NCBI GenBank assembly: GCA_030532125.1
Contig: JAUNLU010000003.1
Location: 26,491 to 90,490 of the forward strand
Direction: 5' to 3'
Length of the DNA: 64,000 nucleotides
Source: Trueperella sp.
Lineage (GTDB): Bacteria; Actinomycetota; Actinomycetes; Actinomycetales; Actinomycetaceae
Part shown: in pieces, positions 18,651 through 56,816 of the stretch
Position numbering within the stretch: position 1 is the first letter of the stretch
How the letters are laid out: every line of letters begins with the position of its first letter
Notes under the pieces: model-generated
Seen by the model: only the letters and a program-made list of their open reading frames with translations
Database searches by the model: none
Told to the model about the DNA's origin: nothing
Translations under genes and position numbers: made by a program

Positions 18651-18939
18651 GATGGTTAGCGGCTGATAGTTCGGTACTACATTGTGCCAAGGCAGCTGCT
18701 CGCCACACAGGTTGTACAGCAGTAGTGACCTGATCCACCCGCTATCACTGCGATCCGCATTGGAATAGTGGGCAACGGTTGCTAGACTCATTACTTGGAC
18801 TTTGCACCTGGTCGGGTGGAAGTCCGGCCTCGATCCATCACCACGGGTGTCCCCACGCCCGGCAGTCCGGATTAGGCGAGCCCTCTACCGACCCTGTAAG
18901 GATCGCGCCAACCGGCGCGGCAATCAGAAAGAGTTAATT

Positions 18940-19212
18940 GTGGCAAACATTAAGTCCCAGATAAAGCGCAATAAGACGAATGAAAAGCGTCGCCTGCGCA
19001 ATCAGGCTGTCAAGTCTGAATTGAAGACCTACGTGCGCAAGACGCGCGAAGCTATTGCGGCGGAAGATGTGGCTGCAGCCGAAGAAGCGCTGCGGACAAC
19101 TGGTCGTAAGCTAGACAAGGCGGTCTCGAAGGGCGTTATTCACCGCAACCAAGCGGCGAATCGTAAGTCGAAGCTGGCTAAGCAAATTGCCAAGATGGGC
19201 AAAGATGCTTAA
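18940..19212 (+). CDS. rpsT: 30S ribosomal protein S20
   Basis: A GTG start at 18940 gives (M)[22 protein letters not shown], a typical S20 N-terminus. The 46 upstream codons in the ORF track are unlikely to be translated. Confidence 0.93.
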
Positions 19213-19253
19213 CAGCATTGACTAATGCATGCGGGCAATCCGCAAAACAACTG

Positions 19254-19278
19254 GCCGAGGTGAAAACCTCGGCTTTTT
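19254..19278 (+). terminator. Rho-independent terminator of rpsT
   Basis: GCCGAGG-tgaaaa-CCTCGGC followed by TTTTT. Confidence 0.85.
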
Positions 19279-19310
19279 GTTTGTTTCTGGGGAGCATGCT
19301 TATTATTTCC

Positions 19311-19412
19311 GGCAGATAACCGGATGATTCTGGTGATACCCAATAAGGCTGGCGGATAACCGGATAATTCTGGCCAAATAACCACCAACCCCAGCCAAAT
19401 AACCACCAACCC
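19311..19412. repeat. Two pairs of direct repeats in the rpsT-holA spacer
   Basis: One pair is GGCAGATAACCGGATGATTCTGG (19311..19333) and GGCGGATAACCGGATAATTCTGG (19351..19373), matching at 21 of 23 positions. The other pair is GCCAAATAACCACCAACCC, repeated exactly at 19373..19391 and 19394..19412. Confidence 0.9.
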
Positions 19413-19427
19413 TGGTCGAGCTGACCA

Positions 19428-19489
19428 AAATGCTATAGATATGGTTTTTCATTGGCTATATCAAATAAGAAACTATATCTATAGCATTT
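19428..19489. repeat. 15-bp perfect inverted repeat with a 32-nt spacer
   Basis: AAATGCTATAGATAT (19428..19442) pairs with ATATCTATAGCATTT (19475..19489). Confidence 0.9.
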
Positions 19490-19946
19490 GGGCTCTAAAC
19501 AAGCAGAAAACAAGCCAAAACCTCTAAAGAATCACCAAACAACATAGAAATAGCGCTGCTACAACACAAAATGCATAAACAACTCAGCATCAAAATGCTG
19601 CACAACTAGATAAGCAATAGCAAGATAGCCAACAAGTAACCAAAAAGAATTAAGCACAATCACTGCACGCTAATAACAGCATAAGGCAGTAAAATGCAGA
19701 AACACCCCTCACCGGGATGGAGTGGGTCTATTACAATCAGCGGCTGCCATGGAAAGTTGGCAAGATAGCCCAACAAAACCTACACAGTGCATTCAGACCT
19801 ATCCACCATCGTCGAGTTTTTACAAGATGCACAACGAGGCCTGCACATTGTATTTGGCAGCAGGCCCCATCAGGTTTTACACAAAATGGCTAACTCCATC
19901 GAGCAGCAGATCTAGCAGCAGTCCACCAGGTAATTGGCATACAGCG

Positions 19947-30435: not shown

Positions 30436-30718
30436 GTTACTGCGAGCGCGTCACCCACGGCTGCAGCATTGGCCAAGTGAGATAAACTCCGCGCCGCTCC
30501 GCAACTGCTGGATAATGACACTTCCCAGTAAACTCGACCTCTGCCGCCGCTACGGTAGCACCCGCTAATTCGGCTATTTTCCACCCGGGTAATAGATAAG
30601 TAGTTTCCATAATTTAATTCTGCCAACGGCCTCCCCCAGTTTGAGAGTTCGCCTACATTTAACGCGGTTTTTTGAGATGCGCTTGCACACTACCGGTGTG
30701 CGTGTTTGTCTATAGGTA

Positions 30719-30799
30719 TTCATCCAGAGCAGCTGAGAGACTCGGCTCCTTGACGCTGCAGCAACCCGTTTGCCGGGTGCTAAAGCCGAGATCGATGGA
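30719..30799 (+). ncRNA. SAM-I-clan (S-box-like, possibly SAM-I/IV variant) riboswitch
   Basis: TTCATCCAGAG...GAGAGA...GCAGCAACC...GGGTGCTAAAGCC...GATGGA matches the conserved UAUC-AGAG, GCAACC, GGUGCUAA and closing GAUGA blocks. The 3' P1 strand overlaps the metN SD (GGAGG at 30797..30801). Confidence 0.7.
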
Positions 30800-30805
30800 G
30801 GCACC

Positions 30806-31795
30806 ATGATTGAGCTAGACGGGGTGACGAAAGTATACCCCCGCAAGGGTCAAGATCCCGTTGTGGCACTTGATAACTTGACGCTCACCGTCCCCCAAGG
30901 ATCCATTCACGGCATTGTTGGTGAGTCTGGAGCGGGAAAATCCACTTTAATTCGCTGTCTGACTGCGCTGGAAAAGCCCACTTCGGGTTCGATTCTGATT
31001 GACGGTAAAGATCTGACCACTCTGCCGGAAGTTGAGCTGCGCCGGGCCCGGCGCCGGATCGGCATGGTATTTCAGGGCGCTAATCTGTTCGAGGCGCGCA
31101 CTGCCCGAGCAAATATCGAGTATCCGCTGCAAATAATCGGTGTCCCTGCCGCTGAGCGGCAAGAGCGAGTGACTCAACTGCTGCAATTAGTTGGGCTTGC
31201 TGACCGCGGCGACTCCTATCCGGCACAGCTCTCTGGCGGGCAACGCCAGCGCGTAGGCATCGCCCGCGCAATCGCATCGCAACCAGCGGTAGTGCTAGCT
31301 GACGAACCTACGTCTGCCTTGGATATGGAGACTACTGACCAGATCTTGACGCTACTTAAAGATATCCGCGATCGGCTCGGGGTGACGGTCATTGTAATTA
31401 CGCACGAAATGTCGGTAGTGCGCAAGATCTGCGATTCAGCGACCCTGCTGGAAACCGGAAAGATCGTGGAGAACGGTCCTATCTCGCAGGTATTGACCGA
31501 CCCAGAATCAGCCCTCGCTCGCAAGCTAGTTCCGCTGCCAGAAGTTGATCCTCGCACAGTGGGGAATAACGCCGTCGTCGATATTTACTTCACCTCTAGC
31601 CCGGGTATTCCCACTGGATCCAAAGTGGTGTCGCGGGCGGCTCAGCTGGGAGGAGATATCTCTGCCGGCACTTTTGAATCTATCGGAGAAATGCAAGTAG
31701 GGCGGATGGCACTCTCGATTGCGCCCTCAAAAGTGAATGCAGCCCTGCAAGGCTTCGCGGAAGACGGACTGTATGCGAAAGTGCGGGAGCTATGA
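30806..31795 (+). CDS. metN: Methionine ABC transporter ATP-binding protein
   Basis: Walker A GESGAGKST, signature LSGGQRQR and a C-terminal NIL-like domain. The start is taken at the ATG at 30806 (MIELDGVTKVY), just after the riboswitch. Confidence 0.92.
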   Translation: MIELDGVTKVYPRKGQDPVVALDNLTLTVPQGSIHGIVGESGAGKSTLIRCLTALEKPTSGSILIDGKDLTTLPEVELRRARRRIGMVFQGANLFEARTARANIEYPLQIIGVPAAERQERVTQLLQLVGLADRGDSYPAQLSGGQRQRVGIARAIASQPAVVLADEPTSALDMETTDQILTLLKDIRDRLGVTVIVITHEMSVVRKICDSATLLETGKIVENGPISQVLTDPESALARKLVPLPEVDPRTVGNNAVVDIYFTSSPGIPTGSKVVSRAAQLGGDISAGTFESIGEMQVGRMALSIAPSKVNAALQGFAEDGLYAKVREL

Positions 31796-45487: not shown

Positions 45488-45982
45488 ATGGCTGAAAATA
45501 ATTATGCTGCGGATGACATGGACGTACTGGATTTTGCCAAGATTGTAAGTCTCTTACCTCCATATCTGCCTATTACTGACGACTTCATAGCGCAAATAAG
45601 TGGAACTGACGAGCGGCCAGAGCGCTCCGAGCGGGAACATATGGTGGGTTGGTACCAAGGGCAAGCCACCACTGGCAGCGGCCAGTACACCAGAAATGTA
45701 CCCAATCGATCAGCCAAAAGAGCTTATAACCGGCTACTTAACCCAGCGTCAGTATTGTGGATCGCGGAAGCAGTTGGCGTAGACGAACAGCTAGTAAGGG
45801 AAGCTGCTGCCAAAGCCCTGGCGGAACCGGCTTGGCGCAGCCGGCCGCGCGTTGCCCGCGAAGTCCTCCCTTGGGAGTTGGTGTTTGAAAAAGCTAAACA
45901 CCTGCCTAAATCAGCTTTCATACTGAGCAAAGGTAAGGGCTACGCTTTGCCGCGCCTGGGGCTACGCCGTCATCACCGCTGA
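45488..45982 (+). CDS. Hypothetical protein
   Basis: 164-aa ORF with coding-like composition and no motif I recognise. It is convergent with res. Confidence 0.5.
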   Translation: MAENNYAADDMDVLDFAKIVSLLPPYLPITDDFIAQISGTDERPERSEREHMVGWYQGQATTGSGQYTRNVPNRSAKRAYNRLLNPASVLWIAEAVGVDEQLVREAAAKALAEPAWRSRPRVAREVLPWELVFEKAKHLPKSAFILSKGKGYALPRLGLRRHHR

Positions 45983-46078: not shown

Positions 46079-48667
46079 CTACAGAGCGTTACTGACCGGG
46101 CTAGCGAAGGTTTTCAGATCTTCCCAGGAGTCAGCGCGGGCAGTGTCTTCCTCGTATGCGATGAGGTAGCCCCAGTGTTGACCAGCGTAGGCTTCCTCAG
46201 CGACCAGGCGTCGCACCAGTGCTTCGGCGGCCTTGCGTTTAGCCTGCACCTGGGTGTCATCGCGGCCTCGCTCTGATTTTCCTTCGATGATCCAGTGCAC
46301 ACCATTGGTGTCCAGGGCAACAAAGTCTGGAAAGTAACGATCCTTGGCGTTGTAGTACACGAACGCTTGGTCTTGCGGGTGCAGGCGATGCCACCAGACG
46401 ATGCCTGGTGAAGTGTTGAGCAGGCGGGCGAGTTGATATTCGCCAGTGAAGGAGTCAAATGATTCTTCAGCGAATAGCGACTTGAACCAGCCTCTATAGA
46501 CTCGACCGCGTACGAACTGCGCGCGGGTCTCAATCTGATCATGTACTTTCTCACCCAGTGGGAGCACATAGCCATCACCTGGCATCTGCTTGGGGTGAAT
46601 GCTGGGTACCTCGCGAGTGGCCCGCAGGGTTTCGGTTGTGTAGTTCTTGATTAGCGTCAGCAGCTCGGTACGAGCAGAGTCGAGGGATTTGACTGTCCAT
46701 CCAGTAAATGTCACGGCTTGCATAAACTTCGGTACCAGGAACGTAGCTACATAGCGAGCAGTCTGTTCGGTCTTGGGCACTAGCGGCATATTGATGACCA
46801 GCTTGTTCAACGCATCTTGTGCATCAGCATCATCAACGTGGACGGAGTCAACCTCGGCACTTTCACGATCCTCCGCCCACAGTTTCTTACCTAGCGCGGC
46901 AATGATCTCCTTACGCAATAGCACATCTCCAGTGGAGGTAACCCGCCGAGCCGCCTGCTCAATCTCAGAGCCACTGATCTCGGATAGGTCAATAGGCGGT
47001 TGCTGTACTCTCATCATCGTCACTGGGAACTGGTACGAAACATCAGCGAAGCGAGGGTTGCGTTCGATCGACACAAGTTCCCAGGTGGGTTCTTCCTCTG
47101 GGTTGGTGATGGTACGAACTCCGACACTGGGTAAACCCTCACTCGGGCCGTCACTGCTGCTGACGGCAACAGTACCCGGCTGCGGGGCTAAGCCAGTGGC
47201 CTCACCACTGGAATCGGTGCCCGCCCCAGGCAGTATCGCACCGACAGCTTGACCGCCACGATCGGTCATGGCTACATCTGCACCTGTGCCGGATGCTTCA
47301 GCGGCTTTGCGGATCGCCTCATCAACTTTGGCCTTATCGAGTTCGGGAACAGCTTCGTCTAGGCCGAACTGTTGGAGCACATTCTCAGCATTGAGCAGCT
47401 CGGTAAAGGACTGGTGGGCTATGATGTCGAGCTGGTCGATCTGCCACACACCCGTATATTTCCCAAACGGCAGGCGTAGGCCGCGCCCCATCGTCTGTTG
47501 GGTCAGCACCTCTGATGCCATCGCCCGCAGCGTCACAACGACAGCGATATTCTTGACATCCCACCCTTCTTTGAGCTTGTTCACACTCACTACCGCTAGG
47601 ACGGGTGATTCGGGCCGATCCAGTTCGTCCAGGCGACGTTGGGTCAGCTCGTCTTCATGCTTGGAGTCCACCTGCAACACGGCCTCATCGCGACCTAAAT
47701 ATTCAGGGGTACGCAAAAGCTCGGCGACCTGGCTGGCATGTTCAACATCCGAACACACCACAAATACAACCGCATTTACCCGGGAGTGGTTTTGACTGGC
47801 CGCATAAGAGTCATAGTAGATCTGCTTGAGCGAGCGCAGCTGTAACGCGTCCCGCAGCTGCTGTTCCTCGGAGGCTTCGTCGGTTCCGTATCCGGTTTTG
47901 CGGAAAGCCAACACTGGAGCCTTGACGTACTTGTCCTGGATGGCTCGGTAGAGCGGGTATTCGAAAATAACGTGATCGGTCTTCTTGTCCACCGACGCGG
48001 TCAAACCAATAGTAGCCGCCGGGTCGAGTTCCTTAAGTGCCGCGTTGAACGCCACTGCACTCGACCCGTACAGGTGGGACTCGTCGGCGATCACCACCAA
48101 ATCGTCAAGATTTTTCAGGTAGTCGAAGAGCACGCCTGCGTTCTCATCAAACCGGCGGGGTTTGCGGCGCATTGCTTCCTGGGTGCCACCATGGGTATCG
48201 CCCTCGGCATCTTTTGGCGCGATCAACTGCTGGATGTTGAAGATGAACGCCAGCACCGGCACCTCATTGCCCAACGCAAACTGAGCCGCGCCGTTCTGCC
48301 GAGCTATCCACGTGGAATAGTCCTGTGGGGTCACCACCTCAGGTGGCACTGCCGAGCCAGTGATATAGCGAGGCGATCCCGATTTGAAATTCTGCACCGT
48401 CTTCGCCTGCACCGTCTTGCCCGGGGTAACAATTACGACGTTACCTACACCTTGGCGGCGCAGATACTCCACAAACGCCGCCATCAAATACGTCTTGCCC
48501 ACACCGGTAGCCAGGTTGAGCACCTGCATCACGGCCGGGTCATAGTCACCGTCGAGAGTGAAAATCAGCTGGCGCAGTGCCTCTTTGTTCGGGGCGCGCA
48601 GATCGAACTCGGAGCTGATCGACTCCAACATATCCGAATCAAAACTGATATTGAGCCTGCTTGTCAT
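46079..48667 (-). CDS. res: Type III restriction enzyme, Res subunit (SF2 helicase plus PD-ExK nuclease)
   Basis: Walker A-like LATGVGKTY, DEAH-type VIADESH, helicase motif VI QTMGRGLR and a C-terminal nuclease motif (YFPDFVAL...WIIEGK). Its start overlaps the mod stop as ATGA. Confidence 0.88.
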   Translation of the reverse strand: MTSRLNISFDSDMLESISSEFDLRAPNKEALRQLIFTLDGDYDPAVMQVLNLATGVGKTYLMAAFVEYLRRQGVGNVVIVTPGKTVQAKTVQNFKSGSPRYITGSAVPPEVVTPQDYSTWIARQNGAAQFALGNEVPVLAFIFNIQQLIAPKDAEGDTHGGTQEAMRRKPRRFDENAGVLFDYLKNLDDLVVIADESHLYGSSAVAFNAALKELDPAATIGLTASVDKKTDHVIFEYPLYRAIQDKYVKAPVLAFRKTGYGTDEASEEQQLRDALQLRSLKQIYYDSYAASQNHSRVNAVVFVVCSDVEHASQVAELLRTPEYLGRDEAVLQVDSKHEDELTQRRLDELDRPESPVLAVVSVNKLKEGWDVKNIAVVVTLRAMASEVLTQQTMGRGLRLPFGKYTGVWQIDQLDIIAHQSFTELLNAENVLQQFGLDEAVPELDKAKVDEAIRKAAEASGTGADVAMTDRGGQAVGAILPGAGTDSSGEATGLAPQPGTVAVSSSDGPSEGLPSVGVRTITNPEEEPTWELVSIERNPRFADVSYQFPVTMMRVQQPPIDLSEISGSEIEQAARRVTSTGDVLLRKEIIAALGKKLWAEDRESAEVDSVHVDDADAQDALNKLVINMPLVPKTEQTARYVATFLVPKFMQAVTFTGWTVKSLDSARTELLTLIKNYTTETLRATREVPSIHPKQMPGDGYVLPLGEKVHDQIETRAQFVRGRVYRGWFKSLFAEESFDSFTGEYQLARLLNTSPGIVWWHRLHPQDQAFVYYNAKDRYFPDFVALDTNGVHWIIEGKSERGRDDTQVQAKRKAAEALVRRLVAEEAYAGQHWGYLIAYEEDTARADSWEDLKTFASPVSNAL

Positions 48668-50682
48668 TGCTGACCACCACCTTCGCTGTAGCGGAACACA
48701 TCATCTGGTAGCGCAACCACTCGCGACCCCTTCACTGCACGCCGCAGATGCTGGCGTACCCCATCCATCACCGCGGTGGCGGCCAGCACGATCGTCTCCC
48801 CAGGCTGGATTTGGGAGGCCAGCCAGTCCGCAATCTCGATTGTGGCCACGCCCTCAACCACCTTCAACAATGCGTTGCCACGGCGGGCATCAAACACGTA
48901 GTCATCATCGGGATGCAACAGCGTGAACCCAAGATTGGCAGCCACTGACTCGATCAAAGTCTGTCCAGTCGCAGCCGCCGTCAGCATCACCCGATCTAAC
49001 TCAGGGTCGTAATCGAAACAGGCTGGCGACAGGTGTGCCACCTGGAAACCGCCCCCGCCACGCCAGTTCACTACTTCTTTCGTGCGTCTGGTCTTCGAGG
49101 CAGCCTTCAGGGCTTTGACGCGCGGATCTTTCTTTGCTTCCGGATCATCAGCAATCAGCTTGTTCAACACTGACGTAAACTTCGCAGCATCTTCTGGACT
49201 GACGCCATCAGGTAGCCCATCTTCCGTCGCGTCGACTCGTTCGCCCTTAGTGCGAGTTACGCCACCCGGATCCTGGTCACTAACAACCTTAGTAAGTCGT
49301 GGCTTGGTAAAACGCTCGAAAGTATCCTCCACCAGTTCGCACGTCACCCAACGCCGGCCCATCTTCTGCGCCACCGCAGCAGTCGTACCCGAACCAGCAA
49401 ACACATCCAACACAATATCGCCCGGGTTAGACCCGATATGAATAATGCGCTCAAGCAATTTTTCTGGTTTAGGCGTGCTGAAAGGGGTAGCGTTTGGGAA
49501 CAGTGTCTTGATCTCATTTTTAGCACTACGGTTATGGCCGACCTCGGTATTGTCCCACCAAGTTCGAGGCGGGGTGCCTCGACTTGGGATATACGTTTTC
49601 AGCCCAATTCCTCCGCTGCTTCCATTAGAACCTCGCAACAACAAGCGAGGAAGTGGAATCTGCGCCATTCTTTTGGTAGCAAATTGGACGTCGCTTTCAT
49701 TCCAATCAGGTATGATCATCTTAGGAATATCTGACCGGATCTCAACGCCTTGCCCTTCAATCTCTGCCCGCTTGCAGAGCTCATTTTCATCGGGGGCAGT
49801 AAGTTGGTAACGTCCCCAATCGCGCATTAGTTCGAGCATAGTATCTTGAGAAAAATACCAATTTGCGTTTTTTCCTGGGTAAACCATTTGCCCAGTAATT
49901 GGGTGTTGAATGCCATAGACACTAGGGTGCTGTTTTTCAGCTAATGCGTGGCGAGCTGTCGGATCCCCATCCCACCATGGCCCGTTTGGATCTTCATCAG
50001 GATTCTTAAATCTTGCGTTGTCCGAAGCGCTTCGAAGCATACGATTAGGTATGAAAAACTCATTTTTTCGATAAACGATTATTATATCTTGATCAGTAGA
50101 AAAGCCTTCACTGTTATTGCGTGGTCCATCAGCCTTTTGCCAAACAACTTCTGCTACAAAATTCTGCGCTCCAAATACTTCGTCCAGAAGCAATCGCATA
50201 CGATGGACTTCCACGTCGTCCAAGTGCACCCAAATTGAGCCGTCGTCTGCGAGCAGCCTCTTGAGATGTAACAATCTGTCGCGCATCATGGTGAGCCACA
50301 CTGAATGCTCGAGGTTATCCTCGTAGTTCGCGAAGGTCTGTGCGGTATTGAATGGCGGATCAATGTAGATCAGTTTGACCTTGCCCAGGTACTTCTCCGC
50401 TAGCTCGGGTACGCGAGTTAGGGCTTCGAGTACGTCTCCAGATTCACCGAGAATTAATAAGTTATCTTCTTGGGGTTCCAGGTCAGCGCGCTCGGAGTAT
50501 TCAAACTTCTCATCTTTAGGGCTTTGCACGCCCTGAACGTAGTCGTCGTAGATGAGGGTGTGAGTTTCGCAGTAGCGCGGATCAGAGGGATCAACCCACG
50601 TGTAACCGTATTTGCCCGTCTCGGTGGGGATGAGGGCTTTGTCTTTGTTGTACCAGGTCAGCTGCAAGCGTTGTGCGGCCAT
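48664..50682 (-). CDS. mod: Type III restriction-modification DNA methyltransferase, Mod subunit (beta-class N6A/N4C)
   Basis: Motif IV IYIDPPFNT precedes motif I VLDVFAGSGTTAAV (beta-class order). The LTWYNKDK N-terminus is typical of Type III Mod, and the gene is translationally coupled to res. Confidence 0.9.
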   Translation of the reverse strand: MAAQRLQLTWYNKDKALIPTETGKYGYTWVDPSDPRYCETHTLIYDDYVQGVQSPKDEKFEYSERADLEPQEDNLLILGESGDVLEALTRVPELAEKYLGKVKLIYIDPPFNTAQTFANYEDNLEHSVWLTMMRDRLLHLKRLLADDGSIWVHLDDVEVHRMRLLLDEVFGAQNFVAEVVWQKADGPRNNSEGFSTDQDIIIVYRKNEFFIPNRMLRSASDNARFKNPDEDPNGPWWDGDPTARHALAEKQHPSVYGIQHPITGQMVYPGKNANWYFSQDTMLELMRDWGRYQLTAPDENELCKRAEIEGQGVEIRSDIPKMIIPDWNESDVQFATKRMAQIPLPRLLLRGSNGSSGGIGLKTYIPSRGTPPRTWWDNTEVGHNRSAKNEIKTLFPNATPFSTPKPEKLLERIIHIGSNPGDIVLDVFAGSGTTAAVAQKMGRRWVTCELVEDTFERFTKPRLTKVVSDQDPGGVTRTKGERVDATEDGLPDGVSPEDAAKFTSVLNKLIADDPEAKKDPRVKALKAASKTRRTKEVVNWRGGGGFQVAHLSPACFDYDPELDRVMLTAAATGQTLIESVAANLGFTLLHPDDDYVFDARRGNALLKVVEGVATIEIADWLASQIQPGETIVLAATAVMDGVRQHLRRAVKGSRVVALPDDVFRYSEGGGQQ

Positions 50683-50760
50683 CTAGTTGGTCTCTCCCTT
50701 CGTCTCTGTAAGCACGACTTCGCAAATGTCGGCGATATCGCAGTTGAGTGCTTGGCAGAT
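50683..50760 (-). pseudogene. 3' stub of a small XRE/YozG-like HTH regulator gene
   Basis: The minus strand reads ICQALNCDIADICEVVLTETKGETN-stop. It is in frame directly after the herA TGA, and its TAG directly abuts the mod ATG. The L..IC.AL.C...DI.E pattern is the usual C-terminus of ~70-aa Cro/C1-type HTH proteins. Confidence 0.5.
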
Positions 50761-52713
50761 TCAGAATGGTGGTTCATCGAGCTTTTCATCTGACTCAGAC
50801 TCCGCTATCAGCGATTTCCTCCACTCAGTTGTTACCGACATAGTACGACTGTTGGGCTCAGCATAGGGTGGGAGTTTACCAATTCGGGTAATCACTGGAA
50901 CTTGGACAGAAACTCCCGCTAGGACGCACGTCCCTGTTGGGAGAATTGGAAGCGATTCGAATGATACGCGGTCAAGGTAGGTTACTGCCTTTTCAATTGC
51001 CTGTACATCGAGATCGTTCACAAGCCGGTGGATGAAGTAATTGTGGAGCTGGGAAATAATCGTAGGTGATATATCATGTGGTCGCTGGCTTGCCAATGTC
51101 AAGAATACGCCAAACTTACGCCCCTCTTTGACAATCTCTTCAAACGTTTCCAAGCGGTAGTCTCTCCATGCTTCGCTTTCCCGTGATGACTGCAACGACA
51201 AGATGTTGTGTGCTTCATCAATTATGAGGTTCAGATACTTCTGCCCACAGGTATCCATTCGCTTCTTGTTATCGTAGAGATGTTTACAGAGAATCATGGG
51301 GATAACCTTGCGCATGGCAAGATTTACGTTCCTAAGCGACACAACAGTCAAGGGAACTTTAGTCAATTCATCATCGGACACTCGAATGAGGAGTTTAATG
51401 CTGGGCACTCTCTCGTGTAGACGCTTAATCATGGGACCCAGATGTTCTCTGTTCGCGAAGCCACTGATTACATCCCAGTAGTACTGGAGCACCAGTTTGA
51501 AGCGGACTAAGTCAATGTCGTCGACCGAGGAAAAGTCCTGCTTGATATTCGCAACCTTGCTCTTGATGAAATCATTCCAGTTAGCATCTGTCGCCCATCT
51601 TCTACTATTGTCATCTTGCGAAATCCAGAAGAAGTCGTGGTTCTTACTGTGATATTGAAGCTGGTTGCGCATCTCTTCAATCAGTGACGAAAGATCTTCA
51701 TGATCGACATTGTTACCGAGACACTCTTTAATATCTTCCAGAAAGTTAATCGGAAGCTGCCTATCTATCGCCCCATCGTTGCTCTTTGTTGCTCGGGCGA
51801 CAAGATCTCCAATAACATCGAGAAGCGCCTCAGGTTTTCGAAGCAGGGTACTCCAGTAGTCACTTTTAAGTACACGAGATATAAACGGTGCTTGAGTCTT
51901 CTCAGTCGCATCAAGTAAAACCGTCCAGAAGACCGGATCATGGACAGCTGCCTTTGGCAAGGGAAGGCGGTCTCCCTGGTCATTGTAGGTCGAAAGATCA
52001 TAAACCTGTTTTACATCGTCATCAGCAATCACGGATTTTGCATACTCGTCAACATCGTCGTCTCTGTTTACATACTCACCGTTGAAGTCAATCAAAACAA
52101 ACTGAGATCGTTGCCTAAATGTTTTGTTATGCCCATACTTTTTGAGAAGTTCGTGGTAGAGCTTTGCGAGTGTATAGGACTTACCACTTCCGGTATTCCC
52201 GAAGATGCCAATGTGACTAGCAAAGATTGCGTTAACTCCGACTTCCACCGCCTGCGTTGGATCCATCGCCAGTGTGCCGATCGCTAATGGTTCGTCACTA
52301 CTGGAGACAAATGTGTGAATGAGTCTGAATTCTTTCTCTGTAAGTATGAAGCACTCGTTGTCAAGAAGCGGCATTTCGCGTACACCGCGTTTGAAGCGCC
52401 CTCCTTCGATGTAGCCTATGAGGCTCACGTCTAGCTGACGAGACAGCGGATCTACGTCACGACGATATTCTGCCGTCGCACTGTAGTCTTCTTCGACTAC
52501 CTCACCGTCAACCTTGGCAATCAATTCAACGAAGCCCTTGGCGATTTTTATATAGCTCGAAACAGCTACATTTCGTACCAGACTGCCCCTATATAAAAGA
52601 TGTGAACCGTTCTTGAGTTTGTCAACAGCGATACGCACTCGCCGGCCGTTTACAGATATCACTCGCCCGATGCGAAAAACTGCGTCATGGTCAAGGTCAA
52701 CTTCCTTAATCAC
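50761..52713 (-). CDS. herA: HerA-like (FtsK/HerA superfamily, DUF87-type) ATPase, partner of SIR2
   Basis: N-terminal barrel-like segment (FRIGRVISVNGRRVRIAV), Walker A GNTGSGKS, Walker B LNLIIDEAHN and ASQRP. The GTG start overlaps the SIR2 stop (GTGA) and follows a GGAG SD. Confidence 0.85.
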   Translation of the reverse strand: MIKEVDLDHDAVFRIGRVISVNGRRVRIAVDKLKNGSHLLYRGSLVRNVAVSSYIKIAKGFVELIAKVDGEVVEEDYSATAEYRRDVDPLSRQLDVSLIGYIEGGRFKRGVREMPLLDNECFILTEKEFRLIHTFVSSSDEPLAIGTLAMDPTQAVEVGVNAIFASHIGIFGNTGSGKSYTLAKLYHELLKKYGHNKTFRQRSQFVLIDFNGEYVNRDDDVDEYAKSVIADDDVKQVYDLSTYNDQGDRLPLPKAAVHDPVFWTVLLDATEKTQAPFISRVLKSDYWSTLLRKPEALLDVIGDLVARATKSNDGAIDRQLPINFLEDIKECLGNNVDHEDLSSLIEEMRNQLQYHSKNHDFFWISQDDNSRRWATDANWNDFIKSKVANIKQDFSSVDDIDLVRFKLVLQYYWDVISGFANREHLGPMIKRLHERVPSIKLLIRVSDDELTKVPLTVVSLRNVNLAMRKVIPMILCKHLYDNKKRMDTCGQKYLNLIIDEAHNILSLQSSRESEAWRDYRLETFEEIVKEGRKFGVFLTLASQRPHDISPTIISQLHNYFIHRLVNDLDVQAIEKAVTYLDRVSFESLPILPTGTCVLAGVSVQVPVITRIGKLPPYAEPNSRTMSVTTEWRKSLIAESESDEKLDEPPF

Positions 52714-54035
52714 CAGGAGTCTCCTTCACGAGGTGCGAACGTCAGATTCGATTCGCTCATCAGGTCAAGAGTCTCTTCAGACATGATTGGTGCTAAGTAA
52801 TCGGATACGAGCACGTCAAGGCTGATCTTTCGTTCTTCCTCGTCCTCACTTGATTTGTCGGGGGCTACGATTTCGATATTGCCATTCTTAACTTCCACAT
52901 CTGGCAAGAGCTGCTTGAATAATTCTAGGTCTTTTTCCGAATAGCAGAACACAATAACCTGCAGTGTAGGGTTTGTTCGGGCTGCTCGAAGCACAAGATC
53001 GCGAAGGTGCTCATCGCGAAAGGAAAAACCGTGTACAAAAAGTACACTGTTCTCTTTTTCCAGTTCGTTAGCCAATCGCCGAATTAATTCGTAATAAGTT
53101 TCGTTCAGTACGGTAGTTGCAAACTTACGCTTATCTGGGTTAACAATCCCAAGCTCGTCGTATTTTGTCGAGAACTTTTCGACAACGGCGGGTAGCACCG
53201 CATCCTCTATTGATTCTGCTTGTTTACTATTATTTTTGAGGTATTCATTCGCCTCAGTGATCATCATGTTAATTGGGCGTATTTTCGGCCCCTCGGACTG
53301 GGGGTAAGACTCCACAGTCACAGGGATCAAGTATTGTTTCGCTTCTTGGAGCAGGCAATTAATTGTTTTCACAAGAGTCAAACCATGGTCGAAATATATG
53401 TCGAACTTGCCATTTTCTCGCTTAACTTGGCACCATGCTGCTGACCCATGGATCTTGATTAGGTTGAATACGGGTACCTCGAACCGGTGCCCATACCTGC
53501 TGCTAGTTTGGAAACGAAGCGCTCCAAATTCACCAAGGTTAAATTTGGGACGGATTTTACCGCTAAATCCATCACAGTAGTCAATGCCCAATTCTTCCAT
53601 TGAGACTTCGAAGAGCATGTCTACGTTTGTGGTGAATATGTTCACCTGCTTCGGTAGAAGGGTACTCCGCCTGCAGAGCAAAATACGATTTAGTGTCCGT
53701 AAGAATCTCACATAAGACTGTAGAACACTATCTGCTTCGTCGCTATGTTCGATAACTTGCAAGTTTGGCACAAGGACTTTTTCAAAAAAGTACGCTTGAA
53801 TTGAAGCACGAACAAGTCCTTTGATGTTTTGTGGAGCATTACTATTCGCGAGTTCTTCGAGAGCATCTTCTATATTACCCAACGCAGAAAAATATGAACT
53901 AGGTGTTCCTGCGCCGATCAGGAAATTCAGATGAGCAGACTCGACAATCACTCTCAACCGTTCTGAAGTGAGACAACTGAATCGGGTCTCAGCAACTTCC
54001 TGCTGTGCTAAACCGTTCACGCGAATCTGAGTCAC
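52710..54035 (-). CDS. SIR2-family NADase-like defence protein
   Basis: FLIGAGTPSS (Rossmann GAG), TTNVD, KIHGS (catalytic His) and GFSFRDEH motifs of the SIR2_2-type family. The start is taken at GTG 54035, 6 nt after a GGAGG SD. The ORF-track ATG at 54071 is the alternative. Confidence 0.85.
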   Translation of the reverse strand: MTQIRVNGLAQQEVAETRFSCLTSERLRVIVESAHLNFLIGAGTPSSYFSALGNIEDALEELANSNAPQNIKGLVRASIQAYFFEKVLVPNLQVIEHSDEADSVLQSYVRFLRTLNRILLCRRSTLLPKQVNIFTTNVDMLFEVSMEELGIDYCDGFSGKIRPKFNLGEFGALRFQTSSRYGHRFEVPVFNLIKIHGSAAWCQVKRENGKFDIYFDHGLTLVKTINCLLQEAKQYLIPVTVESYPQSEGPKIRPINMMITEANEYLKNNSKQAESIEDAVLPAVVEKFSTKYDELGIVNPDKRKFATTVLNETYYELIRRLANELEKENSVLFVHGFSFRDEHLRDLVLRAARTNPTLQVIVFCYSEKDLELFKQLLPDVEVKNGNIEIVAPDKSSEDEEERKISLDVLVSDYLAPIMSEETLDLMSESNLTFAPREGDSW

Positions 54036-54443
54036 TCGTAACCTCCAAGATCTCCTGAAGTAAAAATGCATGCATACAGTTGATTTCTTGAATCTAACAG
54101 TTATTTAGTGGTTCACGCTGGCATCGTATTAACACTCGACTTTTATATGGTTCAGCAATGCTCCACACATTTGCTGGAAACTGTTAGGAACTTCAACTAT
54201 ATGGTTCATATTGAACCGCATTGACCAATAGAATATGCAGTTCATAGAACTATCTAAGGTTATAGCTCCGCTGCGACCATACTGCATTTCCATAGATGAA
54301 AAAGACCGGTCCTGGACTCCCACCAAAGCGGGCAGCGGAACCGGTCATGTTGCTGCCATCATAGTTCATATTCGCTACAGAGACCAGAGATTTCACCCAC
54401 ACCGTGTTCGCTTTTAATGCGCCAGGAGCGCATTACTACTAGG

Positions 54444-54484
54444 CAAAAAAGAGGAACCGCCCTAGCTTTTAGCAGCTAGAGCGG
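54444..54484 (-). terminator. Rho-independent terminator downstream of tRNA-Ala
   Basis: The minus strand reads CCGCTCTAGC-tgctaaaa-GCTAGGGCGG (10 bp including one G-U), followed by TTCCTCTTTTTT. Confidence 0.8.
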
Positions 54485-54490
54485 AAAAAT

Positions 54491-54566
54491 TGGTGGAGCA
54501 TAGGGGATTCGAACCCCTGACCTCTTCCATGCCATGGAAGCGCGCTACCAACTGCGCCAATGCCCC
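54491..54566 (-). tRNA. tRNA-Ala (anticodon GGC)
   Basis: The reverse complement folds as a 76-nt cloverleaf: acceptor GGGGCAT/ATGCTCC with G3:U70, anticodon arm CTTCC-ATGGCAT-GGAAG, T-arm AGGGG-TTCGAAT-CCCCT, and an encoded CCA. Confidence 0.93.
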
Positions 54567-55847: not shown

Positions 55848-56816
55848 TTAGACCAACAAGTTGATGAGCTCTTCTGGGGTGAACCCCGATAGCCCCTCTG
55901 AGAAGAATGTAGCGTCGATCCACGCGCCGCCTAAGTAGCCAACCAGTGCCGCAATGAGAATCAATAGCACCCCGTTGATCCAGCTGGCCCGCCGCGACCG
56001 CCGCTGGGTCTGGTCTGCGTCAGTGTCAGTTTCTGGATCTGCTGCTGCAGGCGCTACTGGGGATTCTGGCTCCGGAGTAGCAAATTCATAGGCCGGTTCT
56101 GCTTCGGGGGCATCCCGTTGTACATCTGGCGCGCCCGGATATGAGTATTCATCAAAATCTAGTGCTACTGCCGGTTGCACTGCGGCCTCGTTGGGCTCAT
56201 CCGGCTCAGTTATGGCATCTGGCTCAGTTATTGCATCCGATTCAGCTGCCGCAGTCTGCTCAGTTTCATCGGTTTCTTCGGCCGGTTCAGTAGACTCTGC
56301 CGGCTCTACCGCATCCGCAGCCTCGGGCGCCGCCGCTTCCGCAGCAGTTGCGCGGCTCTTGCGCGTCATTTCCAACAGACGTTCGCGCAGCGAAAGCGCC
56401 TCTTTCTTCTCCCCTGCTTCAGCTTCTGCTGCGTCGTCAGCTGCCGGTGCAACAGATTCTTCCGGTTCTGCTGCTGCCTCTGCCGGTTCTGCTGCCGATT
56501 CAGCAGATTCCGCGGCTGCAGCGTCGGCTTTTTCCTCGAAACGATCGAAAACTGAGGTGCGCTCCGGCTTATCTGCCGCAACTGGCGCAGCGCCGTCAGC
56601 TGATTCTGCTTGCTCTGCCAGCGCCGGCACTTCCAGCGCAGCCGCTGCTGCTTCCTGAGCAGCCTCGCGTTCGCGCTGTTCTCGCAGTTCCTTGCGCGAC
56701 GGGCGGCGCAGCTGGAGCTCAGCAGTTTCGGTAATCGACGGCGCATCTGCCGCCCGCGCCGTCAGCTTGCCAAGCTCTCGCATTTCCTTACGGCTTAAGC
56801 GTGGAGTCTCACTCAC
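55848..56816 (-). CDS. Acidic Ala/Glu/Pro-rich low-complexity protein with a C-terminal TM helix
   Basis: 322-aa ORF with a charged N-terminus, long A/E/P/D tracts, a tandem AITEPD repeat and a C-terminal hydrophobic helix (WINGVLLILIAALVGYLGG). Confidence 0.6.
   Translation of the reverse strand: MSETPRLSRKEMRELGKLTARAADAPSITETAELQLRRPSRKELREQREREAAQEAAAAALEVPALAEQAESADGAAPVAADKPERTSVFDRFEEKADAAAAESAESAAEPAEAAAEPEESVAPAADDAAEAEAGEKKEALSLRERLLEMTRKSRATAAEAAAPEAADAVEPAESTEPAEETDETEQTAAAESDAITEPDAITEPDEPNEAAVQPAVALDFDEYSYPGAPDVQRDAPEAEPAYEFATPEPESPVAPAAADPETDTDADQTQRRSRRASWINGVLLILIAALVGYLGGAWIDATFFSEGLSGFTPEELINLLV

What the first reader, a model, noticed from the sequence alone, without database searches (positions are those of the whole stretch)
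50761..54071. SIR2-like plus HerA-like ATPase pair: a SIR2-HerA-type anti-phage cassette of foreign composition
Seen in sequence: two translationally coupled minus-strand genes with a GTGA stop/start overlap. The upstream product carries FLIGAGTPSS, TTNVD, KIHGS and GFSFRDEH, which are the SIR2-type NAD+-binding and catalytic blocks. The downstream product has a HAS-barrel-like N-terminus, Walker A GNTGSGKS, Walker B LIIDEAH and ASQRP, which places it in the HerA/FtsK-type ATPases. Hand counts on a few 60-nt lines give about 45-50% GC here, against about 60% in flanking housekeeping lines.

Established knowledge: two-gene SIR2 plus HerA systems are a described defence family that aborts infection by depleting NAD+.

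Inference: this is a horizontally acquired member of that family in a higher-GC, actinobacterial-type host.
Basis: partly seen in the sequence, partly recalled or inferred. Interest (0 to 1): 0.75.

Follow-up and report, generated by a model that had tools for sequence, protein, structure and literature searches.

The report
SIR2-HerA anti-phage cassette beside restriction system
This is an intact two-gene SIR2-HerA anti-phage system (predicted to kill infected cells by destroying NAD+) spliced next to a mobile Type III restriction-modification system behind a tRNA gene in a Trueperella-like actinobacterium; it is a real but ordinary member of an already described defence family.

Summary
Two overlapping minus-strand genes encode a SIR2-family protein (52710-54035; the real start is probably GTG 54035, not ATG 54071) and a HerA ATPase (50761-52713).

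Both proteins hit PADLOC SIR2-HerA models strongly (1.2e-51 and 1.9e-169, the latter full length). Both match only SIR2-HerA or defence-HerA complexes in the PDB, by sequence and by predicted fold. They keep the catalytic Asn/Asp/His of SIR2 and the Walker A Lys, Walker B Asp-Glu and SQRP Arg of HerA, all invariant across 34-36 clade members.

SIR2 sits directly upstream of HerA in 83 of 87 related loci. The host is a Trueperella sp. MAG.

The background is 54.6% GC, not 60%, and this cassette clade is below its flanks in all 14 other hosts checked.

The better evidence:
- A synteny break right after tRNA-Ala.
- Atypical codon usage.
- A recombination scar: the 78 nt between herA and mod are the 3' stump of an HTH gene, cut exactly at the herA stop.

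The adjacent Type III R-M is a separate, highly mobile module. Verdict: a new member of a known kind, of modest interest.

The parts
54491..54566 (-). tRNA-Ala (anticodon GGC). It is the last element of the conserved proA-nadD-hyp-rsfS-hisPhos-tRNA block, and the island begins on its 3' side.
   Evidence: ARAGORN and Rfam tRNA at 66 bits. The same gene order up to this tRNA is found in Arcanobacterium, Actinobaculum, Varibaculum and Flaviflexus.
54457..54484 (-). Terminator-like hairpin (11 bp stem, T-run) immediately after the tRNA.
   Evidence: the sequence can be read.
54036..54456 (-). AT-rich non-coding leader (about 44% GC) upstream of sir2, the presumed promoter region. It holds no convincing ORF and no RNA family.
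   Evidence: No consensus sigma-70 match stands out above the shuffled expectation.
52710..54035 (-). sir2, encoding a 441-aa SIR2-family NADase effector. Key residues: G41-A42-G43 loop, N137, D139, H196, GFSFRDEH 336-343. The mechanical ORF extends to ATG 54071.
   Evidence: PADLOC SIR2 PDLC04080 at 1.2e-51. Pfam SIR2_2 at 1.1e-8. PDB SIR2 subunits of E. coli, S. aureus and Paenibacillus SIR2-HerA at 9e-13 to 2e-11. Invariant residues. Fold search.
50761..52713 (-). herA, encoding a 650-aa HerA-type ATPase. It has an N-terminal beta-barrel, Walker A G172-S179 (K178), a helical insertion at about 254-450, Walker B D499/E500 and SQRP R544. Its GTG start overlaps the sir2 TGA stop.
   Evidence: PADLOC HerA PDLC04097 at 1.9e-169, covering 11-633 of 650. 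Pfam DUF87 at 2.2e-15. PDB defence HerAs at 8e-29 to 4e-22. Invariant residues. Model and fold search.
50683..50760 (-). 3' remnant (25 codons plus stop) of an HTH_3/HTH_26 gene that precedes mod in other genomes. It is truncated exactly at the herA stop codon and marks the junction between the two modules.
   Evidence: About 80% nucleotide similarity to T. abortisuis ends at 50760. The translation ICQALNCDIADICEVVLTETKGETN* compares with ...RICEALDCDIADICEVVPTDLKGETD*.
48664..50682 (-). Type III R-M methyltransferase (Mod, 672 aa). The central part, 49478-50170, cannot be aligned to relatives and is the presumed target-recognition region.
   Evidence: PADLOC MTase_III at 2.9e-192. Pfam N6_N4_Mtase at 1.5e-45. 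blastn.
46079..48667 (-). Type III R-M restriction subunit (Res, 862 aa), overlapping mod by 4 nt. Its C-terminus carries a PD...ExK-like motif (PDFVALDTNGVHWIIEGK).
   Evidence: PADLOC REase_III at 1.1e-61. Pfam ResIII at 1.7e-13. It is 87-89% identical to proteins in several actinobacterial genera. The motif was read from the translation.

Best explanation
The region holds a complete, probably functional two-gene SIR2-HerA abortive-infection system. It belongs to a divergent, mainly actinobacterial clade of the family. It lies in a small defence island of about 8.4 kb with no mobility genes, on the 3' side of tRNA-Ala(GGC) in a Trueperella sp. genome. It is joined end to end with an independently mobile Type III restriction-modification module.

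Mechanism, inferred from the characterised Paenibacillus, E. coli (Nezha) and S. aureus systems:
- HerA forms a hexameric ATPase ring.
- A multimeric ring of SIR2 docks on HerA's N-terminal beta-barrel face.
- The complex is held in check at normal ATP levels.
- On infection (ATP loss, DNA ends or phage proteins, depending on subtype) the SIR2 NADase is unleashed.
- NAD+ is cleaved to ADP-ribose and nicotinamide, the infected cell stops growing and the phage fails to propagate.

The R-M module would act first by cutting unmodified DNA, with SIR2-HerA as a second, suicidal layer.

Shown here: gene structure, family membership, intact catalytic residues, obligate gene pairing, mosaic junction, and module mobility. 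Inferred: complex assembly, NADase activity, trigger and phage protection.
For: - HMM hits to defence-specific models for both proteins, and Pfam SIR2_2 and DUF87 above the gathering cutoffs.
- The only PDB sequence relatives of SIR2 are the SIR2 subunits of the three solved SIR2-HerA systems.
- In those alignments, SaSir2 catalytic N226/H287 (PMC11514289) and PsSIR2 N163/D165 (PMC11472057) align with N137/D139/H196 here. PsHerA K173 aligns with K178.
- All of these residues are invariant in the clade alignments.
- Predicted folds: all 37 significant PDB hits of the SIR2 model are SIR2-HerA SIR2 chains, while sirtuins, ThsA and SPARSA appear only at E > 0.04. The HerA model hits defence HerAs at E about 1e-19.
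- SIR2 is directly upstream of herA in 83 of 87 related loci. The 4 exceptions have 1.3 kb or less of upstream sequence.
- The same pair occurs on Rhodococcus and enterobacterial plasmids and in defence islands next to BREX.
- Acquisition: synteny is conserved up to tRNA-Ala and lost after it. Codon bias B is 0.398 (HerA) and 0.322 (SIR2), against 0.205-0.286 for the 12 long background genes. An HTH stump sits at the junction.
- NAD+ depletion and abortive infection by SIR2-HerA are published (bioRxiv 10.1101/2021.12.14.472415).
Against: - There is no experimental data for this clade.
- Identity to any characterised system is low: 14-20% over structural alignments, and NCBIfam anti-phage equivalog models score 80 vs a cutoff of 500 bits and 132 vs 850 bits. 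Trigger and regulation may therefore differ, as they do between E. coli subtypes (PMC13434337).
- The structure models are mediocre (pLDDT 63 and 68.5; TM 0.35-0.55), so the fold evidence is supportive only.
- No integrase, att repeat or conspecific empty site was found, so the time and direction of acquisition are unresolved.
- The GC dip is partly intrinsic to the family.
Confidence: 0.88

Rival explanations
1. The four co-oriented genes (sir2-herA-mod-res) form one functionally integrated system. For example, DNA ends made by the Type III enzyme could license SIR2-HerA.
For: All four genes are on the same strand. Only 78 nt separate herA and mod, and no terminator was predicted between them. 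In E. coli type III Sir2-HerA, exposed DNA ends stimulate the ATPase and relieve NADase inhibition (PMC13434337). In five other loci the pair directly follows brxL of a BREX operon, another system based on DNA modification.
Against: The adjacency is not conserved. Only 1 of 87 related loci has both a Type III Mod and Res nearby, and there they are on the opposite strand. The R-M module occurs without SIR2-HerA in T. abortisuis, A. phocae and others. The two modules differ in composition. They meet at a truncated gene, which points to an accidental junction.
Confidence: 0.07
2. The cassette is a long-standing resident rather than a recent import. Its low GC reflects only the AT-rich amino-acid composition typical of this protein family.
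For: GC3 is only 1.1-2.0 sd below background, while GC1+2 is about 3 sd below. Homologues in high-GC hosts keep a GC1+2 deficit despite a host-like GC3. The dip is present in all 14 other loci. No mobility genes or att sites were found.
Against: Codon-usage distance exceeds all 12 long background genes. The non-coding leader is also AT-rich. The cassette is absent from this locus in every related genus examined. The closest HerA relatives are only 78-80% identical and sit in unrelated contexts. The truncated HTH gene shows a recombination event at the cassette border.
Confidence: 0.12
3. The link between the housekeeping block and the island is an assembly artefact. The contig would have been joined wrongly through the conserved tRNA-Ala gene of a metagenome.
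For: In the independent Logan assembly of the same run, the housekeeping contig ends inside the tRNA and the island contig starts inside it.
Against: The NCBI MAG contig (284,683 bp) spans the join. The island-side contig continues for 81 kb at 55-56% GC, like the rest of the window. Contig breaks at tRNAs are expected from graph branching. The identity of the cassette does not depend on the join.
Confidence: 0.05
4. The pair is a housekeeping DNA-repair HerA with a protein-deacetylase sirtuin, and is not a defence system.
For: HerA also scores weakly against archaeal repair HerA models (NCBIfam NF040937 at 5e-20; PDB 4d2i at 4e-16).
Against: The best matches are always the defence-type proteins. 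No NurA, Mre11 or Rad50 partner is present. The cassette is patchily distributed, borne on plasmids and embedded in defence islands. Classical sirtuins match only at E > 0.04.
Confidence: 0.02

Closest known systems
Paenibacillus sp. 453MF SIR2-HerA (PDB 8w9l, 8wiv, 8wld; Garb et al. 2021/2022; PMC11472057)
   Same: A two-gene sir2-then-herA operon. The SIR2 N/D/H catalytic triad and the HerA Walker A Lys align with residues here. HerA has the same layout: N-terminal beta-barrel, RecA core, helical insertion and C-terminal arm. It is the best HerA sequence hit in the PDB (8e-29).
   Different: Only local sequence similarity, with 15-19% identity over structural alignments. SIR2 here is 441 aa versus 381. 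The host phylum differs. Oligomeric state and trigger are untested.
E. coli SIR2-HerA / Nezha (PDB 8j4u, 8su9, 8sub, 8uae)
   Same: It is the best SIR2 hit by sequence (8.8e-13) and by fold (2.6e-8). The TTN(Y/V)D, K(L/I)HGS and GF(G/S)F(G/R)D(Y/E)H blocks align.
   Different: HerA is more distant (4e-22). The NCBIfam equivalog models for anti-phage SIR2 and HerA are far below cutoff. E. coli subtypes that diverge to this degree differ in trigger and gating and are not interchangeable (PMC13434337).
S. aureus Sir2-HerA (PDB 8yhx, 8yho; PMC11514289)
   Same: Catalytic N226 and H287 align exactly with N137 and H196. The HerA C-terminal ATPase half has the strongest domain score (3e-21).
   Different: Low overall identity. 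SaSir2 has an N-terminal extension of about 90 aa relative to this protein (query residue 60 aligns to chain residue 144).
Uncharacterised actinobacterial and plasmid-borne SIR2-HerA pairs (Boudabousia tangfeifanii, Raineyella, Mycobacteroides abscessus; Rhodococcus plasmids; enterobacterial IncF plasmids)
   Same: True orthologues. HerA is 64-80% identical and SIR2 62-70% identical, with the same overlapping gene pair. Enterobacterial plasmid versions are 40% identical over 95% of HerA.
   Different: Their genomic contexts differ: after brxL, next to a toxin gene, or on plasmids. None has been tested experimentally as far as the searched literature shows.
DUF4297-HerA defence system (PDB 8xau, 8ziq, 9c1m)
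   Same: Its HerA is as similar as the SIR2-associated HerAs (1.9e-27 by sequence; the top fold hit, 8xav, at 1.6e-19).
   Different: The partner gene here is a SIR2 NADase, not a DUF4297 nuclease.

Membership tests
SIR2-HerA anti-phage system | SIR2-domain effector with the NAD+-binding glycine loop and the catalytic Asn/Asp/His | tested here: met
   G41-A42-G43, N137, D139 and H196 are present and invariant in 34 clade members. They align with SaSir2 N226/H287 and PsSIR2 N163/D165.
SIR2-HerA anti-phage system | HerA/FtsK-type ATPase with Walker A Lys, Walker B Asp-Glu and a conserved Arg | tested here: met
   K178, D499/E500 and R544 are invariant in 36 sequences. K178 aligns with PsHerA K173, whose mutation abolishes defence.
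SIR2-HerA anti-phage system | N-terminal beta-barrel (HAS-barrel) domain on HerA, the SIR2 docking face | tested here: met
   Residues 11-215 align with PsHerA 10-205 (domain E 4.7e-11). The model shows strands at 14-123. Confidence in this part of the model is only moderate.
SIR2-HerA anti-phage system | sir2 and herA adjacent and co-oriented in one operon | tested here: met
   A 4-nt GTGA overlap with an internal Shine-Dalgarno sequence. The pairing is conserved in 83 of 87 related loci.
SIR2-HerA anti-phage system | Recognition by curated defence-system models | tested here: met
   PADLOC SIR2 PDLC04080 at 1.2e-51 and HerA PDLC04097 at 1.9e-169. DefenseFinder was not available.
SIR2-HerA anti-phage system | HerA hexamer plus SIR2 12- or 14-mer supramolecular complex | not testable with these tools
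   Only monomer prediction was available.
SIR2-HerA anti-phage system | Infection-dependent NAD+ depletion and phage protection (abortive infection) | not testable with these tools
   This needs an experiment. It is published for other members (PMC11472057; PMC11514289).
Nezha / NCBIfam equivalog subfamilies (NF042942 SIR2_antiphage; NF042943/NF042944 HerA_antiphage) | Score above the curated equivalog cutoff | tested here: not met
   80.5 vs 500 bits, and 132 and 119 vs 850 and 800 bits. The pair belongs to the broader family but not to these characterised subfamilies.
Type III restriction-modification system (neighbouring module) | Mod (N6/N4 methyltransferase) followed by Res (SF2 helicase-type ATPase with a C-terminal endonuclease motif) | tested here: met
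   PADLOC MTase_III at 2.9e-192 and REase_III at 1.1e-61; Pfam N6_N4_Mtase, ResIII and Helicase_C. A PD...ExK-like motif was read in the Res C-terminus. The two genes overlap by 4 nt.
tRNA-associated integrative genomic island | Integrase or recombinase gene, and a direct repeat of the tRNA 3' end at the far border | tested here: not met
   No recombinase lies among the island or flanking ORFs. The tRNA 3' 25-mer occurs once in the window even with 3 mismatches allowed, and no repeat family involves it.
tRNA-associated integrative genomic island | Location at a tRNA with loss of synteny and atypical composition | tested here: met
   A tRNA-Ala(CGC) is likewise just upstream of the cassette in L064 and L092.

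The most novel reading that the evidence does not exclude
This actinobacterial SIR2-HerA clade has no characterised member and lies outside the curated anti-phage equivalog models. It could be a distinct subtype that is preferentially wired to DNA-modification immunity. It directly follows brxL in 4 of 16 close loci and in 1 distant locus, and here it is fused upstream of a Type III R-M. Its HerA might sense DNA ends or intermediates produced by the partner system, which would give a coupled two-layer defence rather than mere co-location.
Probability: 0.1. Interest if true: 0.6.

Novelty: new member of a known kind. Interest (0 to 1): 0.3.

Why it matters
It adds an intact SIR2-HerA system to a poorly sampled, animal-associated actinobacterial lineage, and shows at base-pair resolution how defence islands are built. 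Two independently mobile modules are spliced together at a gene stump behind a tRNA, with no mobility genes left.

The practical lesson is methodological. For this family, a GC dip is a poor indicator of recent transfer, because the proteins are intrinsically AT-rich at codon positions 1 and 2. Junction scars and synteny are more reliable.

The clade is widespread in Actinomycetota, including Mycobacteroides abscessus, and is untested. A representative would be worth characterising, because E. coli SIR2-HerA subtypes this divergent differ in trigger and gating.

Tried and rejected
- **Empty site in close relatives.** The genome-contig scan with the flanking His-phosphatase returned nothing closer than Arcanobacterium, at about 55% identity. 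Exact-protein look-ups of the two flanking genes found only the same sample, or nothing. No conspecific comparison was possible.
- **att repeats and integrase.** None found.
- **The 164-aa ORF next to res.** I tested whether it is a relic of the Zn_ribbon_recom gene that flanks res elsewhere. It is not (E 0.11).
- **Phage carriage.** There are no meaningful hits in GenBank phages and only 4 IMG/VR contigs.
- **Promoter and terminator scan.** Nothing rose above the shuffled expectation except the hairpin after the tRNA.
- **Placement in the E. coli type I-III scheme.** The paper gives no accessions in the held text and no supplements are held, so this was not possible.
- **Rfam scan of the island.** Only the tRNA was found.
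- **Structure models.** They came out at moderate confidence, so I used them only for ranking fold neighbours, not for residue-level geometry.


Full report
**What is there.** The upstream ORF (52710-54071 mechanically) encodes a SIR2-family protein, and the downstream ORF (50761-52713) a HerA-type ATPase. The sir2 stop and herA start overlap as GTGA, with AGGAGA 6 nt upstream of the herA GTG, so translational coupling is plausible. All quoted motifs are present.

The SIR2 start should be moved to GTG 54035, for three reasons. GGAGG lies 6 nt upstream. Independent gene callers give a 441-aa product. The clade consensus N-terminus, MTxVRINGVAQQ, matches translation from that codon.

**Family assignment.**
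- Pfam gives SIR2_2 (1.1e-8) and DUF87/HerA (2.2e-15), both above gathering cutoffs.
- PADLOC defence models are far stronger: SIR2 PDLC04080 at 1.2e-51, and HerA PDLC04097 at 1.9e-169 covering residues 11-633.
- Against all PDB sequences, SIR2 matches only the SIR2 subunits of the three solved SIR2-HerA systems: E. coli Nezha 8j4u/8su9, S. aureus 8yhx and Paenibacillus 8w9l.
- HerA matches the defence HerAs of SIR2-HerA and DUF4297-HerA systems first, and archaeal repair HerA only distantly.

In those alignments the published catalytic residues line up with residues here. SaSir2 N226/H287 (PMC11514289) and PsSIR2 N163/D165 (PMC11472057) align with N137/D139/H196. PsHerA K173 aligns with K178. 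These residues, the GAG loop, Walker B D499/E500 and R544 of SQRP are invariant across 34 SIR2 and 36 HerA clade members.

AlphaFold models were only moderate (pLDDT 62.8 and 68.5), but their fold neighbours are unambiguous. All 37 significant hits of the SIR2 model are SIR2 chains from SIR2-HerA complexes, and classical sirtuins, ThsA and SPARSA appear only at E > 0.04. The HerA model hits defence HerAs at about 1e-19.

NCBIfam's anti-phage equivalog models are the best NCBIfam hits but fall far below cutoff. The pair therefore belongs to the family but to none of the experimentally anchored subfamilies.

**The pair is a module.** HerA relatives at 64-80% identity and SIR2 relatives at 62-70% identity are numerous. 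They are mostly actinobacterial: Boudabousia, Microbacterium, Raineyella, Mycobacteroides abscessus, Arthrobacter-group and Gordonia.

In 87 related loci drawn from genomes, metagenomes and viral contigs, a SIR2 gene lies directly upstream of herA on the same strand in 83. The four exceptions have 1.3 kb or less of upstream sequence. The pair also occurs on Rhodococcus plasmids (65%) and, as a 40%-identical sister clade, on many enterobacterial conjugative plasmids. It is essentially absent from GenBank phages.

**Host and locus.** The exact proteins come from a MAG labelled Trueperella sp.. Upstream of the cassette lies a housekeeping block, proA-nadD-hyp-rsfS-histidine phosphatase-tRNA-Ala(GGC). 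Its order is conserved in Arcanobacterium, Actinobaculum, Varibaculum and Flaviflexus up to and including the tRNA. After the tRNA every genome differs and none carries these defence genes there. The island therefore begins at the 3' side of tRNA-Ala (54491) and runs to the res stop (46079).

It contains four genes and no integrase, and the tRNA 3' end is not repeated.

**Composition.** The deficit lies mainly at codon positions 1+2 (z -2.8 to -3.1), with GC3 only z -1.1 to -2.0.

In high-GC hosts the homologous cassette has host-like GC3 (0.76-0.83) yet still a lower total GC. In all 14 related loci examined the cassette is below its flanks, by 0.001-0.115. The value here is 0.085. Part of the dip is thus a family trait and does not date the transfer.

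Codon-usage distance does point to foreign origin. Karlin B is 0.398 (HerA), 0.322 (SIR2) and 0.318 (Res), against 0.205-0.286 for the 12 background genes longer than 400 aa. Mod is typical.

**A mosaic of two mobile modules.** Directly downstream are a Type III mod (48664-50682) and res (46079-48667). Res is 87-89% identical to proteins of Trueperella abortisuis, Actinotignum, Arcanobacterium phocae, Gleimia, Actinomyces and even Corynebacterium. Housekeeping proteins of this genome are only 41-83% identical to Arcanobacterium and its relatives. The R-M module has therefore spread recently, and elsewhere it sits in unrelated contexts without SIR2-HerA.

At the DNA level, about 80% similarity to the T. 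abortisuis module runs from the res stop to position 50760, the base adjacent to the herA stop codon. It is interrupted only by the variable central part of mod.

The 78 nt between herA and mod are not a spacer. They encode ICQALNCDIADICEVVLTETKGETN*, which corresponds to the last 25 residues of the 78-aa HTH protein that precedes mod in T. abortisuis. The SIR2-HerA module was therefore joined to the R-M module by a recombination event that removed the 5' two-thirds of that gene. This is the most direct evidence that the cassette arrived by horizontal exchange.

SIR2-HerA nucleotide similarity to its closest relatives (68-73%) is confined to 50821-53996.

**Mechanism.** By homology (inferred, not shown here), HerA forms a hexamer and a SIR2 ring docks on its barrel face. 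Complex formation enables NADase, ATPase/helicase and nuclease activities, and ATP restrains them. Infection releases the NADase, NAD+ collapses and the infection aborts. The E. coli subtypes show that trigger and gating vary between divergent clades, so those details cannot be transferred. The R-M module presumably acts as the first layer.

**Rivals.** A functionally integrated four-gene system is unlikely. The adjacency is not conserved (1 of 87 loci), the modules differ in composition, and they meet at a gene stump.

An ancient resident explains the GC pattern but not the codon usage, the synteny break or the scar.

A chimeric join at the tRNA is possible in principle, because the independent Logan assembly breaks there. 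It would not change what the cassette is, and the island-side contig has host-like composition for 81 kb.

A housekeeping repair role is contradicted by every comparison.

**Verdict.** I rate it a new member of a known kind, with interest of about 0.3.

Noticed in passing
window 46079-50682: The Type III R-M Res protein is 87-89% identical across several genera and two orders (Trueperella abortisuis, Actinotignum, Arcanobacterium phocae, Gleimia, Actinomyces, Corynebacterium belfantii and C. vitaeruminis). Housekeeping proteins are much less conserved than that. The module appears to be spreading recently among animal-associated Actinomycetota, and the central region of Mod (49478-50170) is swapped between copies.
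   Followed up: partly
window 50683-50760: The apparent herA-mod spacer is the 25-codon 3' stump of an HTH_3/HTH_26 gene (possibly a controller protein) that is intact upstream of mod in T. abortisuis (L152 7935-8171). A. phocae (L154) also carries only a stump.
   Followed up: yes
L065 6479-11983; L066 6596-11977; L076 3734-9019; L142 6692-11968; L128 6541-11691: In five loci the sir2-herA pair directly follows brxL at the 3' end of a BREX type 1 operon, with a 0-102 nt gap. That is 4 of 16 loci in the clade with at least 60% identity and 1 of 37 more distant loci. A full-text search found no paper describing this arrangement.
   Followed up: partly
L064 7796-7871 and L092 7810-7885; window 54491-54566: A tRNA-Ala lies just upstream of the cassette and co-oriented with it in three different genomes: anticodon CGC in Boudabousia and L092, GGC here. 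Boudabousia also has a serine-recombinase-type Zn_ribbon_recom fragment right after herA. This hints at past tRNA-Ala-targeted integration. The L092 copy looks decayed, with split ORFs.
   Followed up: partly
window about 54505-54530 (inside tRNA-Ala): The independent Logan assembly of run SRR24915805 breaks into two contigs inside the tRNA-Ala. The graph therefore branches there, through strain variation with and without the island or through a tRNA shared between genomes.
   Followed up: partly
L152 12573-13271, L156 2989-3687, L064 12171-12869: A 232-aa ORF containing Zn_ribbon_recom lies convergently against the 3' end of res in two genomes, and after herA in Boudabousia. The copies share only the zinc-ribbon segment (38% over 47 aa). 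The window has no counterpart.
   Followed up: partly
window 45488-45982 (+): A 164-aa ORF convergent with res has no Pfam or NCBIfam family. Its only hit is a weak PADLOC match to a 4TM effector model (E 0.001). It is unclear whether it belongs to the island.
   Followed up: no
L152 4663-7945: In T. abortisuis the HTH-mod-res module is preceded by three genes with Pfam CTD6, MC2 and AAA_23 domains. These in turn sit next to phage-like replication genes (DNA pol A, ssDNA-binding, PD-(D/E)xK). This may be another defence set on a mobile element.
   Followed up: no
window 30717-30801 (+): A SAM riboswitch (Rfam RF00162, 53.6 bits) lies at the 5' end of the ORF 30770-31795. This is ordinary.
   Followed up: no
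window 18651-19946: A low-GC stretch (about 0.47-0.49) with strong AT skew contains a short ORF that looks like ribosomal protein S20 ([17 protein letters not shown]...). No RNA family was detected. This is ordinary.
   Followed up: partly
window 55848-56816 (-): A 322-aa Ala/Glu/Pro-rich low-complexity protein sits between nadD and rsfS. Only its first 40 or so residues are conserved in relatives. It accounts for the strong AT-skew excursion at 56-57 kb.
   Followed up: no
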